64,000 bases of DNA from a virus (Duplodnaviria; Heunggongvirae; Uroviricota; Caudoviricetes), in IMG/VR virus record IMGVR_UViG_2690315748_000001, positions 60,652 to 124,651 of that record; one strand, given 5' to 3'. Shown here in pieces: positions 47,767 through 56,014 of this stretch (the stretch's first letter is position 1; every line of letters starts with the position of its first letter). The notes below the pieces were generated by a model. That model saw only the letters and a program-made list of their open reading frames with translations. It had not been told where the DNA came from and did not search any database. The position numbers and the translations under genes were made by a program.

Positions 47767-48348
47767 ATGGAACTTAATCTTACTTTGCCTGTACCAACAT
47801 CAATCAATAAATTATACATTAACGAGTATCAGTATGACGCAAGGATAAAACAGCGTGTGCCAACTGGACGAAGAATCCTCTCTAAAGATGGTCGAAAAGT
47901 GAAAGCACAAATTCAAGGTCGTGCAAGGATACAGTTGCTTGACCAGCCTGATTGGGATTATGAATGGACAAAGGAAAACTTTGTTTATCAGGATGCAGTC
48001 ATTTATTTCGCAAGACGCGGTAGTGATGACAATAATATCTACAAACTTCTGAACGATTCTCTTGAAGGTATTGTGTATGACAATGACTCTAGGGTTTTAG
48101 TTCGGACTCAGCACATTGTATATGACTCTAGTAATCCTCGTATCGAGGTTTCCATTAAACCCGTTGACTTTGTTGGCATCTTCAAAGACAAAGACGTTTA
48201 CAAAGAGTTCTCTGCTAAATGTACTGGATGTTCCAGATATCGCAACGGGTCTTGTTCGATCTTAAAGGATTCGGTTGCAGGAACCGTCAGAGAGGAAATC
48301 GGAAGCATTAATAGTCCGATATGTACAAGCTTCAAAGCCAAAAAGTAG
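47767..48348 (+). CDS. RusA-like Holliday-junction resolvase with C-terminal Cys-rich extension
   Basis: PVPTSINKLY and DDNNIYKLLNDSLEGIVYDND match RusA catalytic Asp motifs; CTGCSRYRNGSC tail. Confidence 0.55.
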   Translation: MELNLTLPVPTSINKLYINEYQYDARIKQRVPTGRRILSKDGRKVKAQIQGRARIQLLDQPDWDYEWTKENFVYQDAVIYFARRGSDDNNIYKLLNDSLEGIVYDNDSRVLVRTQHIVYDSSNPRIEVSIKPVDFVGIFKDKDVYKEFSAKCTGCSRYRNGSCSILKDSVAGTVREEIGSINSPICTSFKAKK

Positions 48349-48376
48349 ACTGCCGCCTATGGCAGTCTTTTTATTT
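48347..48376 (+). terminator. Rho-independent terminator
   Basis: agactgccgcctatggcagtct + TTTTTATTT. Confidence 0.8.
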
Positions 48377-48392
48377 ATATAAGATTATTGAC

Positions 48393-48470
48393 GAGGAAAA
48401 TTCTGGAGTTTATACTATAGCTAGTAACCATTGTTACTATAGTAATACATGTTACTATAGTAACATGAGA
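48393..48470 (+). promoter_or_regulatory. Promoter TTGACG-17-TATACT followed by two tandem palindromic operator-like sites with core TTACTATAGTAA (second is the 18-bp perfect palindrome ATGTTACTATAGTAACAT)
   Basis: Read directly; sites lie between -10 and RBS of the RHH gene. Confidence 0.65.
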
Positions 48471-48472
48471 AG

Positions 48473-48676
48473 GTGGTATGTGTTATGGCTAGAAGAAAAA
48501 CTTTCCCGTTAAAATTTGAAGATAATTTTTCAGAGAAGATTAACTGGTTTGTATTCCACATGAAATCAGAATCAAAACAACAATACATTATTGATGCAAT
48601 ACGAGATAAGATGGAAAAAGATGAGATTGCCCTTAGAAAAAAGGGGATAATTTATGATGAAACATTGGGAATATGA
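48473..48676 (+). CDS. Ribbon-helix-helix (CopG/Arc-like) DNA-binding protein, probable autoregulator
   Basis: N-terminal beta-strand KTFPLKF followed by two helices; 67 aa; directly downstream of palindromic sites. Confidence 0.5.
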   Translation: MVCVMARRKTFPLKFEDNFSEKINWFVFHMKSESKQQYIIDAIRDKMEKDEIALRKKGIIYDETLGI

Positions 48677-49526
48677 AAAGTTATTCAACGATGATGTTCG
48701 TGAAAAGAAGCGTGTAGCTAACAACATTCACAAAAGAGTTGCCACTAGAAAAGGTGGTAAAAATTCACCTTTGCGGACTCCATATTATTTCATGTCCAAC
48801 AAAGATAAAAAGACTTTAAATGGAAAGGTGACGACGATCAAATTGAAAGAAGTAATGAGTAATGCTGAATTTAAAAAATTAGATGATGAGACTCAAAAGT
48901 TATTGCTGACTGAGTGGAGAGATAATTTTCAAATGAAAGAAATAGTTGAAAAGATGGGGGTTTCTCCTGAGACATTCTATTCCCATATGAGAAGGCTTGA
49001 CATTCCAAGAACAATGCGGTCTAAACCCACATTTAGTGGAGATAAACCATTCAAGGTCAATGACTATTATACGTTGACCTACAATGAATTTAAAAAAATG
49101 AAGAAGAAGCATAAAGTTGATGTAGCCAAGATTATCTTTGATAAATATACTACAGCGGAAATCGTTGAAAAATGGGGAGTTACCGAAAAAGCAGTATGCA
49201 GTTTAAGGTGGAGGTTACTTGGGAATATCAATGACAATGAACAAAAAAATGATACGATTAACGAAGGAACGCTGAATGAGAATCTATCTAACGATACAAG
49301 GTTGATTGTCGAAGTTGCTCCAGAAAAAAATGAGATTGTTAGCACACATGATTCTGGATCAACCAATGAAATTTTAGAGGATTTCTTTTTCACTTTTAAC
49401 AAAAGAGGTGGAGACAGAAAAGCAATAATACGAAAATTAAAATATCTTATAGAAGAGATGGAAGAAACAAATGAAAGCACTGTTTTTGATATCCATGTTA
49501 CAGTGAGAGGAATAGATAAAAAATGA
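48654..49526 (+). CDS. DNA-binding protein with two HTH-like segments
   Basis: EIVEKMGVSPETFYSHMRRL and EIVEKWGVTEKAVCSLRWRL resemble sigma-70 region-4/terminase-small-subunit-type HTH. Confidence 0.4.
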   Translation: MMKHWEYEKLFNDDVREKKRVANNIHKRVATRKGGKNSPLRTPYYFMSNKDKKTLNGKVTTIKLKEVMSNAEFKKLDDETQKLLLTEWRDNFQMKEIVEKMGVSPETFYSHMRRLDIPRTMRSKPTFSGDKPFKVNDYYTLTYNEFKKMKKKHKVDVAKIIFDKYTTAEIVEKWGVTEKAVCSLRWRLLGNINDNEQKNDTINEGTLNENLSNDTRLIVEVAPEKNEIVSTHDSGSTNEILEDFFFTFNKRGGDRKAIIRKLKYLIEEMEETNESTVFDIHVTVRGIDKK

Positions 49527-50113
49527 AGTTAAATAAAAAGTTCTTTGAATCTACATTTGACAGCACAAAGAGAATGTTTGAGAGTAAAATGATGAAGATT
49601 CCACATGAGGTAATCATCAAGTTTCAATCGAAAGAAGATTACCTTGTCGCAGTCAAAGAAAATCCTCTTATTCAAACTCAAATCAATCTTGGATTTTACA
49701 AGGATATCGAGAAAGAATATGTTGGCTTCGCTGTGGTTTATGCCAATGATAAATTAGAGTTACGCACTATCATGGGGTTGCCTTACGCGATAACTATCTG
49801 TGATGAGATTGCAAAAGATGTGTTGAAGCCTTTTACTTCAACAGAAATAAAGGCGTATTTAACCCATGTATATCTTCACGAATTGACCCATATTTTCGAT
49901 AATAAACTAAAGGAAACTTTTCCAGATATGTGGCAAGAAAATCTTTCCAAGACCAATCAAAATGTGCCAATGGCTAATGAATTGTTTGCAGAGAGTATTC
50001 CACCAATCGTTATGGGTGAGAAAGACATTTCCATTTATAAAAGCGTTGAAAAGAAACTCTGGTCTAAAGTTATTCTTAGGGCAGAACAAGCAAAAAGACA
50101 GAGGAGATTATAA
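49523..50113 (+). CDS. HEXXH zinc metallopeptidase-motif protein (ImmA/IrrE-like candidate)
   Basis: VYLHELTHIFD contains HExxH; about 196 aa. Confidence 0.45.
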   Translation: MKLNKKFFESTFDSTKRMFESKMMKIPHEVIIKFQSKEDYLVAVKENPLIQTQINLGFYKDIEKEYVGFAVVYANDKLELRTIMGLPYAITICDEIAKDVLKPFTSTEIKAYLTHVYLHELTHIFDNKLKETFPDMWQENLSKTNQNVPMANELFAESIPPIVMGEKDISIYKSVEKKLWSKVILRAEQAKRQRRL

Positions 50114-50727
50114 TGGACGATATAGAATTATGTGAGATTAAAGTTGGAGAAAGGTTTCCTCTTTTTGCTAACAGCATAGAAAAACTTAAAGGAATTGACG
50201 GAGCAAAATTTGAAGCAACCGATTTCAATCAAGGTTATTTCTTCTGCATACATTTAACTGACATTAGCTTTATGGATAAACAATCGTTCCGAAACGACAA
50301 GATCGCGGTCAAAGTGTTACAAGGTGATGGTGGAATGATTCTTCCGATGATCATGTTTGGGAAGTCTATGATATTTGAAATGAAATTTGATCCAACTCTA
50401 TATGATGATGAAAGAGTTTTTCAGCTTGCGGAAGGGTACAATATTCTTACGATATTCCTAATCGAGAGTAATAATGGGGTCGTCAAGGCAATCCGTCAAT
50501 GCAACTTACCTTTAAAAATGGTTCAAATTTGCAAAGAAGCTTGGGGTAGAGCAATGCTTGACTTAGACTTCTCAAGCAAATTTCAAGCATGGACAACACG
50601 TTTGAACAATTATTCTTTACAAACCTTATGGGACAGAGCGACTAAGGTTGGCTCCATGGGGGAGACATATGATCTAAACGAAATAAAAACACCAAACGCC
50701 TATAGACCACAAGGAGACATAGAATGA
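50113..50727 (+). CDS. hypothetical protein
   Basis: ORF, ATGA-type overlap. Confidence 0.45.
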   Translation: MDDIELCEIKVGERFPLFANSIEKLKGIDGAKFEATDFNQGYFFCIHLTDISFMDKQSFRNDKIAVKVLQGDGGMILPMIMFGKSMIFEMKFDPTLYDDERVFQLAEGYNILTIFLIESNNGVVKAIRQCNLPLKMVQICKEAWGRAMLDLDFSSKFQAWTTRLNNYSLQTLWDRATKVGSMGETYDLNEIKTPNAYRPQGDIE

Positions 50728-51164
50728 AGAAGGCGATTATAATTTTAACGCTATTATCATTATCACTTACAGCCTGTGCATCGGCGGAAAAAGAGAAAAA
50801 AGAAGAAGAGCTTCAAAAATCATATGAGCAAATGCAAGAAGAATCACGAATTAAGAATCAACAGAAAAAGGAGTCAAGCGAATATCTATTTGGATTTTTG
50901 CAAATTGACGACTTCACTATTGACAATTCAGGAAGTAAACCCAAAGCTAAAGCAAGATTGACTAACAATTATAGTGGAACATTAGTTGGTCATATCGGTT
51001 TGGTTGTTTATGATAAGGATATGAACATCCTTGACACTCAATATGTCGCTTTGCCAAGCGTTGGAGTTAAATATGATGAATCCTTCTTAGTCGATGAATA
51101 TATTCAAAAAGAAGACTACTACACACTAAAGTTTGCTGATGCAGATATGCTTCGTTTGAAGTAG
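50724..51164 (+). CDS. lipoprotein
   Basis: Signal peptide with lipobox LSLTACAS. Confidence 0.55.
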   Translation: MKKAIIILTLLSLSLTACASAEKEKKEEELQKSYEQMQEESRIKNQQKKESSEYLFGFLQIDDFTIDNSGSKPKAKARLTNNYSGTLVGHIGLVVYDKDMNILDTQYVALPSVGVKYDESFLVDEYIQKEDYYTLKFADADMLRLK

Positions 51165-51205
51165 TATAAAAGATTATTATTTCGTTTTCGAGAGAAGAGA
51201 TATGA

Positions 51206-51418
51206 ATGAGCAATAAGATACTTTCATGTAATTTAAAGAATATTTTACGAGAAAAGGGTTTAGATCAGAAAGATCTATCTCAAATGACTGGAGTCAGAGA
51301 AGCTACAATTTCTGAAATGGTCAGAAATAAAAACAAGATGTTTTCTCGACAAGTCCTTGAAAAAATAATGAATGCCTTGGACATAGACGATATTGGAAAA
51401 CTGCTAGAGATTAAATGA
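51206..51418 (+). CDS. XRE/Cro-C1-family HTH transcriptional regulator
   Basis: LKNILREKGLDQKDLSQMTGVREATISEMVRNKN canonical HTH_3. Confidence 0.65.
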   Translation: MSNKILSCNLKNILREKGLDQKDLSQMTGVREATISEMVRNKNKMFSRQVLEKIMNALDIDDIGKLLEIK

Positions 51419-51454
51419 TTGAAAATGACGTTTTGAACATGATATACTAAAAAA

Positions 51455-51645
51455 GAGCAGGGATGCGCAAACATCCCCACTCTTTTACAACAGCCGCCTT
51501 GAAGAGCGGTCAGCAGTAGGCTTGGTTCAGAAATAGACCGTTACCTTTGGATGAGGCGGTCAGCCGTGTTCTGGTTCAACGAAATAGACCGTTTACCTTT
51601 GCACAGGGCGGTCTATTTCTTTTTGTTTTTTTGTAAAAACTTGTC
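51455..51645 (+). ncRNA. Candidate structured RNA / repeat-containing leader ending in terminator
   Basis: Promoter TTGAAA-18-TATACT at 51419; two ~49-nt tandem units (GCGGTCAGC..CTGGTTCA..AAATAGACCGTT.ACCTTTG); terminal hairpin gaaatagaccg/cggtctatttc + TTTTTGTTTTTTT. Confidence 0.35.
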
Positions 51646-51728: not shown

Positions 51729-52610
51729 ATGTTCAAATCAGCAATTTTGGAATCAGTAAGCGACATAAACCTTTTGACAGACATATTAAAAGAAGAGTTT
51801 TCTAACGAAAACTGGGAATCTATGGTGCATATTGCGGACAAGCTTTATACGTCGATTAAAGGATTGTACGAAGAAAACCAACTTCGGCAAGCAAAAGAAC
51901 AGCCGAGAGTTGATACTGGAAGACTTAAAAGAAGTGTCGCTTTCTATTTCGGGTTTTCGATGGTAATGAAAGGTATTGCATTACAGAAGATGGGTGATTA
52001 CGAAGGAACCCGTGACTGCATTGAAAAATACTCTGAGTTGGGATGGATGTACGGGTTGGGCGAGGAAGGTCAAGCTGATGTGGCTCATTTCAAGATGCTT
52101 GCACGAGCAAATACATACGTCCTTGACTTACTAGAGGGAAAAATGGATGTGCTCCCTGAGTACGTTCAATTCATACACAATGCCGAGGAAGTAGAGTTGC
52201 TGCCGGGAATTATAACAATTCTGGAATCAGCTATAAAAAATAATCATAATGTTGATTGGGCATTAGAAGAATTTGAAATTCAGCTAAACGCTCTGGACGG
52301 AGAGTACGAAGAGGAAGCCAATATACGTTATTATATAGACCATCTATATCTTATGGCACTATATAACTTTAAAAATGGGAGATATTTCAATGCACTAAAC
52401 ATTACACTTAATGGTTTGCGAATGTCTGATAAACTTAAAGATGATACAGGGTATAAAAAAATCAATGCATTATTTGTTACATTTAGTACCCATGCAACTA
52501 AAGAGCAGCTAAATGAATATAATGCATTGAACAAAACTATCCTTGAAAGGGTGTTAAAAGATGAAAAAGGCATTAGGTTTGATGGTAGTAGCTTTGTTTC
52601 TGTTCGGTAG
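51729..52610 (+). CDS. TPR-like all-helical protein (Rap-like receptor candidate, no HTH)
   Basis: 293 aa, repeated helical hairpins rich in Y/L/A/N; 3' end overlapped by a signal-peptide pro-peptide gene. Confidence 0.45.
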   Translation: MFKSAILESVSDINLLTDILKEEFSNENWESMVHIADKLYTSIKGLYEENQLRQAKEQPRVDTGRLKRSVAFYFGFSMVMKGIALQKMGDYEGTRDCIEKYSELGWMYGLGEEGQADVAHFKMLARANTYVLDLLEGKMDVLPEYVQFIHNAEEVELLPGIITILESAIKNNHNVDWALEEFEIQLNALDGEYEEEANIRYYIDHLYLMALYNFKNGRYFNALNITLNGLRMSDKLKDDTGYKKINALFVTFSTHATKEQLNEYNALNKTILERVLKDEKGIRFDGSSFVSVR

Positions 52611-52698
52611 CGTGAGCGGTATCGGAGGGTTCGCCCCGAACAATCATGGAGCGAATAGCTTCCAACTCCAACCTTATAATCATGGAGCGAATAGCTAA
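52561..52698 (+). CDS. Secreted pre-pro-peptide (45 aa) with tandem NHGANS repeats (Phr-like candidate), not in ORF track
   Basis: Signal peptide MKKALGLMVVALFLFGSVSG; C-terminal PNNHGANSFQLQPYNHGANS; 19-nt exact DNA duplication aatcatggagcgaatagct; overlaps 3' end of TPR gene in another frame. Confidence 0.5.
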   Translation: MKKALGLMVVALFLFGSVSGIGGFAPNNHGANSFQLQPYNHGANS

Positions 52699-54313: not shown

Positions 54314-54598
54314 TAATAAAAGACTAACTATCCTTGTAGTTAGTCTTTTATTATTATTTTATAAATTCTTTTTTAGAATATCTTCAAACGAATTGTAGCT
54401 TTTTCTTCCGATACTTTTAATCATAAAATCCTCGAAAAACTATCCTAAAGGTATCTAAAATACATATATGAAATGTATATGATTTTATTCCAAAAGATGG
54501 TACAATCAAGAAGGGTATTCTACTACTTGTTTCAGAACTACATAATAATTTTAACTATGCATCGTATTGTTAGTCTACGTTGAAAGGGTGGTTTATTG

Positions 54599-56014
54599 AT
54601 GAAAATTGCACCCACGATTCGAGCAGAATTAGACAGATTTCTACAACAAGAAAGCTTAACATTATCGCAATTTGGACAAATCGCAGGGATGAATAGGGGA
54701 GCAGTAAGCGCTATTGTAACAGGGAATAAGCCTTTGTCTGTTAACCAGCTTGACTTAATTACTAAGGCTATGGGTTTGCCAGAGGGTCACTTTTACGACT
54801 TGTTCGCGGAAAATTACATCATAGATCACCCTCCAAATATGAAACGAATTGAGCCATTTTTGTTTCGCTGTGCAGAGTTGGACAAGTTAGATGCGATCCG
54901 TCGAGTGGTGGGAGCCATCATGGACAATCTAATGTATTCGCCCAAACTATTTGAAATTGCAGAAGGATTGTTGGCGCAGAAAAAGCTAGAAGCTGCATTG
55001 ATACTCTATGAAGGGGTAGCCGAAGCGGAGAGATATCAACATTCTGAACGTTTAGCCATCTGTCAATATCGGATTTTCAAAATCCAAATTGGAGATGATC
55101 AAAACCGTAATCTTAGTGCAGCTACGATTTTTGAAGTTTTTGTTGAGCGCCTTAATGAAATAGACCAACTTGACGCATTGAAGGATTTAGCAAACGTATA
55201 CAGGTCTTTACGTAAATGGGATAAGGTTGAGGAAATCGCTAAAAAAATGAGAGCTAAGGCGGAAATCCAATACACTTTGAAACATCAACAGAACAGTCGA
55301 GAACGTGATGAATCTACTAAAAGTCTAACTCGTCCCTTGTTTGTATACATCACCTATGCTGATCTATTGTGTGCTAGTGTCTGCGAAGCCAAAGGCGATT
55401 ATCAACAAGCTCTACAATATACTTACGCCTACGCCAATTTAGATTGGGTCAAAGAGACTGACGAAGATACCCAATACTGGATCGATTTGTACAAAACTTG
55501 GGCAGAAGGTAATACTCACGTTAATAAGCTCCTGTCTGGAGATACCAGTGTGCTAACGGAGTATGTTGAATACATTGCTGTTTCAGCCAATAAAGCAGAT
55601 AAAGAAATGGTCACCAAACTGTTAAATGTTTTGATGGCGGCTAATCGTTATAAGCTGGATGTAGATGACATACTTCGGCGCTTTGAAATTGATTCTTTTA
55701 CTCAGCAGCAACAGCCGTCAACGGATATGTATACGAAACAAGTTATACCAGAGCAATCCGCACGTTTGAGTTATGAATTAGCTTATTACCATCTACATCG
55801 AGGTTCATACGATGATGGTTTTAAATACTTGATGTATTCGTTGGTAAGTTACCATATACTAAACAACGAGAGCTATTATATAAACTGTATAGGGCTGTTT
55901 GAGCATTTCCGTACTCATGCGGTTCCTGAGACATTGAGCGAGTTCTCAAAAATAATTGAAAAGGTGTGGTTAGATAATGTTGAAAAAGGTTGCTTTTCTG
56001 ATCATCGCGACTAG
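54599..56014 (+). CDS. RRNPP-family (AimR/NprR/PlcR-like) HTH plus TPR peptide-sensing transcriptional regulator
   Basis: N-terminal XRE-type HTH LSQFGQIAGMNRGAVSAIVTGNKPLS; about 400-aa helical/TPR-like C-terminus; small secreted peptide gene overlaps its 3' end. Confidence 0.55.
   Translation: MKIAPTIRAELDRFLQQESLTLSQFGQIAGMNRGAVSAIVTGNKPLSVNQLDLITKAMGLPEGHFYDLFAENYIIDHPPNMKRIEPFLFRCAELDKLDAIRRVVGAIMDNLMYSPKLFEIAEGLLAQKKLEAALILYEGVAEAERYQHSERLAICQYRIFKIQIGDDQNRNLSAATIFEVFVERLNEIDQLDALKDLANVYRSLRKWDKVEEIAKKMRAKAEIQYTLKHQQNSRERDESTKSLTRPLFVYITYADLLCASVCEAKGDYQQALQYTYAYANLDWVKETDEDTQYWIDLYKTWAEGNTHVNKLLSGDTSVLTEYVEYIAVSANKADKEMVTKLLNVLMAANRYKLDVDDILRRFEIDSFTQQQQPSTDMYTKQVIPEQSARLSYELAYYHLHRGSYDDGFKYLMYSLVSYHILNNESYYINCIGLFEHFRTHAVPETLSEFSKIIEKVWLDNVEKGCFSDHRD

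What the first reader, a model, noticed from the sequence alone, without database searches (positions are those of the whole stretch)
48393..51418. Autoregulated six-gene operon: RHH protein with tandem TTACTATAGTAA operators, double-HTH protein, HEXXH (ImmA-like) peptidase, unknown protein, lipoprotein, XRE regulator
After a strong terminator, a TTGACG/TATACT promoter is followed by two adjacent palindromes. One is the perfect 18-mer ATGTTACTATAGTAACAT; the other differs by 2 nt. They lie between -10 and the RBS of a 67-aa ribbon-helix-helix protein, the textbook self-repressed arrangement. Downstream genes include a protein with the HELTH zinc-peptidase motif, reminiscent of ImmA-type anti-repressor proteases, which pair with XRE repressors. 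A lipoprotein is a candidate superinfection-exclusion factor, and an XRE HTH protein follows. None carry the genome-wide early-promoter element, so this cassette is regulated separately. It could be a lysis-lysogeny switch, a defence island or a moron.
Basis: partly seen in the sequence, partly recalled or inferred. Interest (0 to 1): 0.65.

Follow-up and report, generated by a model that had tools for sequence, protein, structure and literature searches.

The report
Self-repressed operon in a Paenibacillus phage
A small ribbon-helix-helix-type protein of a large Paenibacillus phage most likely switches off its own six-gene operon by binding a row of 9-bp-spaced sites at the promoter; this is a textbook arrangement, and the suggested protease/repressor switch is not supported.

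Summary
After an intrinsic terminator, a sigma-A-type promoter (TTGACG-17-TATACT) is followed by five GTWAC-type units spaced exactly 9 bp apart (48424-48464). They include a perfect 20-bp palindrome and form the only such array in the 64 kb window. Six tightly packed genes follow.

Seven related Sundance-like Paenibacillus phage contigs that carry the small leader gene each have exactly one such array, always just upstream of that gene. Two relatives without the gene have the same promoter but no array. The leader protein (63 aa, not 67) belongs to an unannotated family whose distant members weakly match ribbon-helix-helix (RHH) families.

The HExxH protein models confidently as a zincin-fold metallohydrolase, but it matches no ImmA/IrrE (M78) model. 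The XRE gene is a strain-specific ~250-bp insertion found in no relative, so an ImmA/ImmR-like switch is not supported.

The unit is mosaic. The 204-aa protein is a core Sundance gene (gp067, 58% identical) with no recognisable fold. The gene-2 slot holds non-homologous proteins in different relatives. No defence-system model matches.

Verdict: a real, RHH-autoregulated, host-RNA-polymerase-driven unit at the early/late junction. The regulatory design is ordinary and the cargo function is unknown. Interest is modest.

The parts
48347..48368 (+). Intrinsic terminator closing the upstream RusA/replication operon
   Evidence: stem plus T-run, -14.1 kcal/mol, z -4.2. An equivalent terminator is present in all relatives.
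48388..48416 (+). Sigma-A-type promoter TTGACG-17 nt-TATACT
   Evidence: Relatives have TTGACA/G, 17-18 nt, then TATAAT, TAGACT or TATTAT at the same place.
48422..48467 (.). Operator array. Five 9-bp units with GTAAC/GTTAC/GTAAT cores starting at 48424, 48433, 48442, 48451 and 48460. Includes the perfect 20-bp palindrome 48448-48467 and a near-copy centred 18 bp upstream. Covers the expected transcription start.
   Evidence: unique in 64 kb. One equivalent array lies upstream of the leader gene in each of 7 loci.
48470..48477 (+). Ribosome-binding site AAGGTGG for the leader gene
   Evidence: Direct reading; 7 nt before ATG 48485.
48485..48676 (+). Leader gene: 63-aa RHH-like DNA-binding protein, the proposed autorepressor
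   Evidence: The family has no Pfam model. Distant members weakly hit HicB, TacA1, ParD, RHH_1, TraY and NikA-like. hhalign aligns it in register with CopG and Arc.
48654..49526 (+). 290-aa protein with two sigma-region-4-like HTH motifs (about residues 90-114 and 161-183), a conserved N-terminal 125-aa domain and a separate C-terminal domain
   Evidence: 458 cluster representatives were found. This slot is non-homologous in L002, L003, L005 and L008.
49523..50113 (+). 196-aa HExxH protein with a zincin (gluzincin-like) fold: H119, E120, H123 and E153
50113..50727 (+). 204-aa protein, orthologue of Brevibacillus phage Sundance gp067. Core gene with an unassigned fold.
50724..51164 (+). 146-aa lipoprotein (signal peptide with lipobox LTAC)
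   Evidence: Direct reading. Searches match only residues 1-66. Homologues in L002, L005 and L004.
51206..51418 (+). 70-aa XRE/Cro-C1-type HTH protein; strain-specific insertion
   Evidence: HTH_26, 4e-13; about 250 bp in the window is replaced by 18 bp in L002.
51451..51486 (+). First hairpin after the operon; probable terminator
   Evidence: -16.7 kcal/mol, z -6.5, followed by CUUUUAC.
51581..51632 (+). Strong intrinsic terminator ending the structured 51450-51632 stretch; outer limit of the transcription unit
   Evidence: -19.3 kcal/mol, followed by a long T-run.

Best explanation
This is a stand-alone transcription unit at the junction between the early/replication genes and the convergent late/lysis genes. 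The host genome is a Sundance-like Paenibacillus phage, probably a phage-plasmid.

Proposed mechanism:
1. Host sigma-A RNA polymerase starts at TTGACG-17-TATACT.
2. The first product is a 63-aa RHH-type protein.
3. Dimers of this protein bind side by side on five 9-bp-phased GTWAC units that begin 6 nt after the -10 and span the transcription start.
4. Binding shuts the promoter. The result would be a brief burst of expression followed by a low, buffered level of the whole operon. This is negative autoregulation, as with Arc at Pant of phage P22 or CopG at the copG-repB promoter.

The regulated cargo is mosaic:
- an exchangeable DNA-binding regulator (here a double-HTH protein);
- a new zincin-fold metallohydrolase;
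- the core gp067-like protein;
- a lipoprotein;
- in this strain only, an inserted XRE gene.

Shown: sequence anatomy, uniqueness of the array, co-occurrence of array and gene, fold of the HExxH protein, and mosaicism. Inferred: binding of the protein to the array, repression, and timing. The unit is not an ImmA/ImmR-type switch.
For: - Anatomy and uniqueness of the array.
- Co-occurrence: under one rule (GTWAN or NTWAC, three or more in a row at exactly 9 bp), each of the 7 RHH-bearing loci (window, L002, L003, L004, L005, L008, L042) has exactly one array in 8-64 kb. Each array ends 20-47 nt upstream of the leader gene. Shuffles give 0.05-0.6 arrays per locus.
- The two loci without the gene (L007 and Sundance L001) keep the terminator, promoter and gp067 but have no array.
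- Unit sequence and orientation vary between relatives: palindromic in the window and L005, direct CTAAC repeats in L003 and L042. The 9-bp phasing is kept.
- The leader-gene and gene-2 segment has been swapped between otherwise 91-99% identical genomes. RHH identity is 60% over 42 aa and gene 2 is non-homologous. This is as expected for a regulator exchanged together with its operator.
- RHH assignment: profile hits to proteins carrying Pfam HicB and TacA1. Family members give weak hits only to RHH-type families (by my knowledge of these folds): HicB, TacA1, PSK_trans_fac, ParD, RHH_1, TraY and NikA-like. hhalign aligns the family in register with CopG and Arc.
- Operon structure: overlapping genes, and terminators only at both ends.
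- Separate regulation: no copy of the genome-wide GCCGAAGAAAGTAYT element.
Against: - There are no binding or expression data.
- The window protein itself hits no curated RHH model, and a profile search of PDB sequences finds no RHH.
- The 9-bp rule was formulated after looking at these same loci, and the loci are related by descent, so the co-occurrence statistic is not independent.
- The promoter call alone is not significant.
- The function of four of the six products is unknown.
Confidence: 0.65

Rival explanations
1. Timing switch of the arc-ant type. The RHH limits a burst of the gene-2 regulator. That regulator (here the double-HTH protein) would be the real effector, for example a late-gene activator or anti-repressor acting elsewhere in the genome. 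This refines the best explanation rather than contradicting it.
For: - Homologues of the 290-aa protein sit as the last gene of the early operon, right after RusA or RuvC-like genes and facing the lysis genes, in unrelated phage contigs (L013 and L022).
- In Rossellomorea phage phiT1 the homologue lies about 800 bp upstream of the terminase genes. This is the usual position of late activators in Firmicutes phages (my knowledge).
- Weak sigma-70 region 4, ECF and phage sigma-factor hits.
Against: - The slot is filled by non-homologous proteins in the closest relatives, and Sundance has no gene there at all.
- Other family members lie next to lysis or integrase genes (L011, L012, L025).
- No target sites were identified, and no RinA/ArpU-type model matches.
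Confidence: 0.2
2. ImmA/ImmR-like switch. The HExxH protein would be an anti-repressor protease that cleaves the XRE repressor encoded at the end of the operon, controlling lysis versus lysogeny.
For: - HExxH plus a downstream invariant Glu on a zincin fold.
- An XRE protein is encoded in the same operon.
Against: - No Peptidase_M78 match for any of 9 family members, even at E<=10.
- The best structural neighbours are 3cmn, YbeY, minigluzincins, M48 and M13, not IrrE/ImmA.
- The XRE gene is an indel absent from all other HExxH-bearing loci.
- The two genes are not adjacent.
- The XRE protein is only 70 aa, with no C-terminal domain to be cleaved.
Confidence: 0.04
3. The palindromes act as RNA, not DNA. 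They would form a stable 5'-leader hairpin that controls mRNA stability or translation of the leader gene.
For: The array lies downstream of the -10, so it is transcribed. The window leader folds at -22.3 kcal/mol, z -3.3, with a stem of about 15 bp.
Against: Leaders of six relatives show no unusual folding, with z from -1.5 to +1.9. In L003 and L042 the units are direct repeats that cannot pair. What is conserved is the 9-bp phasing of a pentamer, which is a DNA-binding signature.
Confidence: 0.06
4. Type II toxin-antitoxin or plasmid copy-control module. The RHH would be an antitoxin or a CopG-like repressor, and the next gene a toxin or a replication initiator of the plasmid prophage.
For: - The distant family hits are to antitoxin DNA-binding domains: HicB, TacA, ParD.
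- The RHH gene is first, overlaps gene 2 and is autoregulated.
- Short RHH homologues in small temperate Paenibacillus phages directly precede a replisome organiser (Lin1244_N) and DnaB.
- Gene 2 of L008 has a weak DnaB_2 hit.
- Sundance carries ParA (PMC4909266).
Against: - Gene 2 is not conserved as a partner and matches no toxin or Rep family.
- The RHH has almost no C-terminal tail for toxin binding.
- There are no iterons or AT-rich origin in or beside the operon.
Confidence: 0.05

Closest known systems
Arc repressor and the Pant arc-ant operon (immI) of Salmonella phage P22
   Same: A small RHH protein is encoded as the first gene of a phage operon and represses that operon's own promoter through a palindromic operator. 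A roughly 300-aa regulator gene follows. (My knowledge of P22; the arrangement here is.)
   Different: No detectable sequence homology beyond a weak in-register hhalign match. The Arc operator is a single 21-bp site between -35 and -10, whereas here five 9-bp units lie downstream of the -10. Gene 2 is not an Ant, KilA or Bro-type protein.
CopG (RepA) and the copG-repB operon of plasmid pMV158
   Same: A 45-aa RHH encoded first, translationally coupled to the next gene, and autorepressing the promoter. (My knowledge; hhalign in register.)
   Different: Gene 2 here is not a Rep protein and no origin is nearby. The operator architecture differs.
Omega repressor of pSM19035 (7-bp heptad arrays) and MetJ (8-bp met boxes)
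   Same: RHH dimers bind cooperatively to short units repeated head-to-tail or head-to-head with fixed phasing. Unit orientation varies between operators. (My knowledge; the same behaviour is seen here across relatives.)
   Different: The unit length is 9 bp and the core is GTWAC. There is no sequence relationship. Binding has not been tested.
ImmR/ImmA of ICEBs1 and Bacillus phage phi105; IrrE/DdrO (Peptidase_M78, COG2856)
   Same: An HExxH metallohydrolase and an XRE-family protein are encoded in one mobile-element operon.
   Different: There is no M78 signature. The pair is not adjacent and not conserved. The fold neighbours are other zincins.
Brevibacillus phage Sundance gp067 and its locus (NC_028749)
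   Same: The 204-aa protein is 58% identical. It occupies the same position after PolIII-alpha and RusA, behind the same terminator and a consensus sigma-A promoter.
   Different: Sundance has no RHH gene, no operator array, no gene 2, no HExxH gene and no lipoprotein gene. There gp067 stands alone.

Membership tests
Ribbon-helix-helix (MetJ/Arc/CopG) superfamily | Significant match to a curated RHH family model | tested here: inconclusive
   The window protein has no Pfam hit at E<=0.1. Its profile reaches proteins carrying Pfam HicB and TacA1. Of 37 family members, 9 hit HicB, 5 TacA1, 4 ParD, 4 PSK_trans_fac, 3 RHH_1 and 3 TraY, with best E-values from 1e-5 to 1e-2.
Ribbon-helix-helix (MetJ/Arc/CopG) superfamily | About 45-aa beta-strand, helix, turn, helix layout with an N-terminal strand of alternating residues | tested here: inconclusive
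   The conserved pattern KTFPLRL / FSEEID..VF / SKHQYIxDAIxEK aligns in register with CopG and Arc by hhalign (P 0.008 and 0.003, probability 5-10%). No structure model was made. A PDB sequence search finds no RHH.
Ribbon-helix-helix (MetJ/Arc/CopG) superfamily | Binds repeated or palindromic operator units as dimers | not testable with these tools
   Candidate units are present and co-occur with the gene. Binding itself needs EMSA or footprinting.
ImmA/IrrE metalloprotease (Peptidase_M78, PF06114, COG2856) | Match to the M78 family model | tested here: not met
   No PF06114 hit for the window protein or any of its 8 homologues, even at E<=10. No NCBIfam or PHROG hit.
ImmA/IrrE metalloprotease (Peptidase_M78, PF06114, COG2856) | Conserved pairing with an adjacent XRE-family repressor substrate | tested here: not met
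   XRE is present only in the window. It is separated from the HExxH gene by two genes, and it is a clean indel relative to L002.
ImmA/IrrE metalloprotease (Peptidase_M78, PF06114, COG2856) | Closest structural neighbours are IrrE/ImmA-type domains | tested here: not met
Zincin / gluzincin metallohydrolase fold | HExxH on a helix, a further metal ligand downstream, and structural similarity to zincins | tested here: met
XRE / Cro-C1 HTH family | Match above the curated cut-off | tested here: met
   HTH_26 49.9 bits (cut-off 22) and HTH_3 33.9 bits (cut-off 23).
Bacterial lipoprotein | Signal peptide ending in a lipobox L-[AST]-[GA]-C | tested here: met
   MKKAIIILTLLSLSLTAC is read directly. 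Family hits (Cor, EexN, TrsH and others) cover only residues 1-66 and fall below their cut-offs, so no exclusion family is assigned.
Type II toxin-antitoxin module | Conserved antitoxin-toxin gene pair with a recognisable toxin | tested here: not met
   The gene after the RHH is non-homologous among relatives. No toxin model matches.
Known anti-phage defence systems (PADLOC) | Match of the non-regulatory proteins to a defence model | tested here: not met
   Only generic HTH matches were found. The HExxH, 204-aa and lipoprotein products have no hit.

The most novel reading that the evidence does not exclude
The RHH, its operator and gene 2 would form an exchangeable specificity cassette, acting as a second, heteroimmunity-like control point of Sundance-like phage-plasmids. 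This cassette would gate a conserved effector set: the orphan-fold gp067-like protein, assisted in some lineages by a new zincin enzyme and a lipoprotein. The effector set would have a new function, for example exclusion of related phages or counter-defence, and would be expressed from the host polymerase in the carrier state.
Probability: 0.12. Interest if true: 0.6.

Novelty: new member of a known kind. Interest (0 to 1): 0.3.

Why it matters
The regulatory logic, an RHH protein repressing its own promoter, is textbook, so the main value is annotation. The analysis yields four things:
- A previously unannotated RHH subfamily of Paenibacillus and Brevibacillus phages, with a predicted recognition code (GTWAC units every 9 bp).
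- A new, very rare zincin family: 9 homologues in 5.8 billion proteins, with no Pfam model.
- A confidently modelled core protein of Sundance-like phages with no structural relative.
- A correction that prevents a wrong 'ImmA/ImmR switch' annotation.

If the cargo proves to act in the carrier state, the locus would be a convenient entry point into the biology of these poorly studied 135-155 kb phages.

Tried and rejected
- DNA search of the phage collection with the cassette: no match. tblastn with the HExxH protein: no match.
- Pfam, PHROGs, NCBIfam and PADLOC on all products: nothing beyond HTH and signal-peptide matches.
- PDB sequence searches with the RHH and HExxH profiles: only chance hits.
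- Iteron or origin search in the operon: nothing.
- Rfam on 47.5-57 kb: only chance-level hits.
- Leader-RNA hairpin idea: rejected because it is not conserved.
- Assumption that the 290-aa gene is merely split in L002, L003 and L005: rejected, since those ORFs are not homologous to it.
- Search of the IMG/VR loci of the 290-aa family for an upstream RHH: none found, so that pairing is not general.
- The search for related loci with the broad alignment A5 failed for lack of conserved stretches. A narrower alignment worked.
Full report
**Source and setting.**
The six products have 100%-identical database entries from Paenibacillus sp. Mc5Re-14, on a 154,442-bp contig. The nearest named phage is Brevibacillus siphovirus Sundance (134 kb). 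Its PolIII-alpha is 71% identical and the gene order PolIII-alpha, small genes, RusA is the same. Sundance carries ParA and a putative integrase (PMC4909266). Relatives of the window sit on contigs of 134-143 kb. The window therefore most likely comes from a Sundance-like phage or phage-plasmid.

The cassette lies after RusA (47767-48348), at the end of the rightward early/replication genes. It faces leftward late/lysis genes further on.

**Checking the observation.**
The terminator (48347-48368), the promoter (TTGACG 48388-93, 17 nt, TATACT 48411-16) and the palindromes are all there.
- GTTACTATAGTAAC matches with 0 or 1 mismatch only at 48451 and 48433 in 64 kb.
- The perfect palindrome is 20 bp (48448-48467).
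- Viewed as half-sites, GTAAC/GTTAC/GTAAT cores start at 48424, 48433, 48442, 48451 and 48460, an exact 9-bp phasing. No other 66-nt stretch of the window holds three or more exact cores. TRF reports the array independently.
- The array begins 6 nt after the -10, so it spans the expected transcription start. It ends 5 nt before the ribosome-binding site.
- The leader ORF is best read from ATG 48485 (63 aa), not from the GTG that gives 67 aa.
- Genes 1-5 overlap by 1-23 nt. Gene 6 follows after 41 nt without a promoter or terminator call. Hairpins with T-runs follow at 51451-51486 and 51581-51632.
It is absent from 47.8-58.9 kb.

**Comparative evidence for an operator.**
I fetched the equivalent loci of relatives through the HExxH, 204-aa and leader proteins: L002-L009 and L042. 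Each has a terminator after RusA and a near-consensus sigma-A promoter.

I then applied one rule: a pentamer GTWAN or NTWAC, three or more in a row at exactly 9 bp. Every locus that encodes the leader protein has exactly one such array in the whole 8-64 kb, and the array ends 20-47 nt upstream of the leader gene.
- Window: 5 units.
- L002: 4 units.
- L003: 4 units.
- L004: 3 units.
- L005: 3 units.
- L008: 3 units.
- L042: 6 units.

Composition-matched shuffles give 0.05-0.6 arrays per locus. The two loci without the leader gene (the Brevibacillus prophage L007 and Sundance itself) have the same promoter in front of gp067 but no array.

The units differ between relatives. The window and P. alvei L005 have palindromes. 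L003 and L042 have direct CTAAC or TATNNTAAC repeats. L004 and L008 have mixed orientation. The phasing is kept throughout.

Caveats: I formulated the rule after seeing these sequences, and the loci share ancestry.

An RNA reading was tested. The window leader can form a stem of about 15 bp (z -3.3), but the leaders of six relatives fold no better than shuffles (z -1.5 to +1.9). The conserved feature is therefore at the DNA level.

**The leader protein.**
It has no curated family. A profile of six orthologues finds 65 proteins. The most distant carry Pfam HicB or TacA1, or are named HicB-family or DUF1778 by their sources. Scanning 37 members individually gives weak hits dominated by HicB, TacA1, PSK_trans_fac, ParD, RHH_1, TraY and NikA-like. 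By my knowledge of these folds, those are all ribbon-helix-helix families.

I rate the RHH assignment at about 80%.

**The cargo.**
- *Gene 2 (290 aa).* It has two HTH motifs that are an internal duplication. It gives weak sigma-70 region 4, ECF, HTH_23 and phage sigma-factor hits. Its N-terminal 125 aa define a sizeable unannotated family (458 cluster representatives). Members of that family sit at module junctions. Some are last in the early operon after RusA, facing the lysis genes (L013, L022). Some lie after the endolysin, near the integrase (L011, L012, L025). One lies about 800 bp upstream of terminase in Rossellomorea phage phiT1. In the closest relatives this slot holds unrelated proteins: 105 + 141 aa in L002, L003 and L005, and 276 aa in L008.
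- *Gene 5.* It has a textbook lipobox. All family matches are confined to the signal peptide.
- *Gene 6.* It is a bona fide XRE protein. In L002, whose flanking genes are 94-99% identical, the roughly 250 bp carrying it are replaced by 18 bp. No other relative has it.

**Mosaicism.**
Against L002, protein identities are:
- PolIII-alpha: 96%
- RusA: 91%
- HExxH protein: 85%
- 204-aa protein: 94%
- lipoprotein: 99%
- leader protein: 60% over 42 aa
- gene 2: not homologous

 The regulator-operator segment has therefore been exchanged as a block. The HExxH gene is present in four loci and absent from L005, L008, L007 and Sundance. The lipoprotein is also patchy. G+C is lowest in the leader gene (30%), gene 2 (33%) and the XRE gene (31.5%), against 38% overall.

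**Interpretation.**
The best-supported reading is a host-polymerase-driven unit that is negatively autoregulated by its first product. That product would be an RHH protein coating a 9-bp-phased array over the transcription start. This works like Arc at Pant of P22 or CopG at the copG-repB promoter. The array architecture recalls the omega repressor and MetJ (my knowledge). What the unit delivers is unknown.

I consider most likely that gene 2 is a DNA-binding regulator with targets elsewhere, possibly in late transcription given where its family sits. The gp067-like protein would be the conserved effector, and the zincin, lipoprotein and XRE would be lineage-specific additions.

Alternative readings and how they fared:
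- The ImmA/ImmR reading fails three membership tests.
- The toxin-antitoxin and copy-control readings lack a conserved partner or an origin.
- The defence-island reading has no PADLOC support.

**Novelty and score.**
The design is a known kind. The members (an RHH subfamily with a GTWAC/9-bp code, a rare zincin family, and an orphan-fold core protein) are new but uncharacterised. Interest is 0.3.

Noticed in passing
window 2255-41639, + strand (e.g. 3683, 6177, 6852, 11142, 20045, 29867, 35046, 38719): The repeated element GCCGAAGAAAGTAYT often continues into TATAAT. There are 25 matches with 3 or fewer mismatches against 3.1 expected, nearly all on the + strand upstream of early or replication genes. 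It looks like a phage-specific promoter class, which implies a phage-encoded or modified specificity factor.
   Followed up: partly
window 51729-52698 and 54596-56014: A 293-aa protein is a paralogue of the C-terminal part of a 472-aa HTH_3 + TPR protein. Its 3' end overlaps a 45-aa ORF, MKKALGLMVVALFLFGSVSGIGGFAPNNHGANSFQLQPYNHGANS, which has a signal peptide and two NHGANS repeats. The ORF is 91% conserved in L002. This looks like an RRNPP/Alo-type peptide quorum-sensing pair with an HTH-less receptor (compare PMC10075063 and PMC7425212). The P. alvei relative L005 instead has a 426-aa HTH receptor followed by a Spo0E-like gene.
   Followed up: partly
window 51419-51632: A promoter-like site (TTGAAA-18-TATACT with an upstream TG) is followed by a structured stretch of about 170 nt. 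The stretch has two direct repeats of about 52 nt and ends in a strong terminator. MFE z is -3.5, there is no Rfam match, and it is conserved in L002. It is a candidate small RNA or compound terminator between the operon and the quorum-sensing genes.
   Followed up: partly
window 51165-51418 versus L002 7643-7660: The XRE gene sits in a segment of about 250 bp that replaces 18 bp in L002, exactly between the lipoprotein stop codon and the next promoter. It is a single-gene insertion or deletion. Its start, TATAAAAGATTATT, resembles TATATAAGATTATT just upstream of the operon's -35 at 48376.
   Followed up: partly
L039 4001-4159; L040 4001-4162; L041 1787-1948: Short (52-53 aa) homologues of the leader protein occur in 37-47 kb temperate-phage-like Paenibacillus contigs. 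They directly precede a replisome-organiser-like gene (Lin1244_N) and DnaB, and face a divergent 68-aa HTH_26 gene. L040 has GTAAC-N6-GTTAC overlapping the likely -10.
   Followed up: partly
L008/L009 1-3932: In one relative the PolIII-alpha gene is interrupted by a 282-aa LAGLIDADG/HTH_38 ORF. This is probably an intein or an intron-encoded homing endonuclease.
   Followed up: no
L042 3927-3976: In this 137-kb relative the operator consists of direct 9-bp units TATNNTAAC. The first unit is the -10 hexamer itself (TATACTAAC), so repressor and polymerase would compete directly for it.
   Followed up: partly
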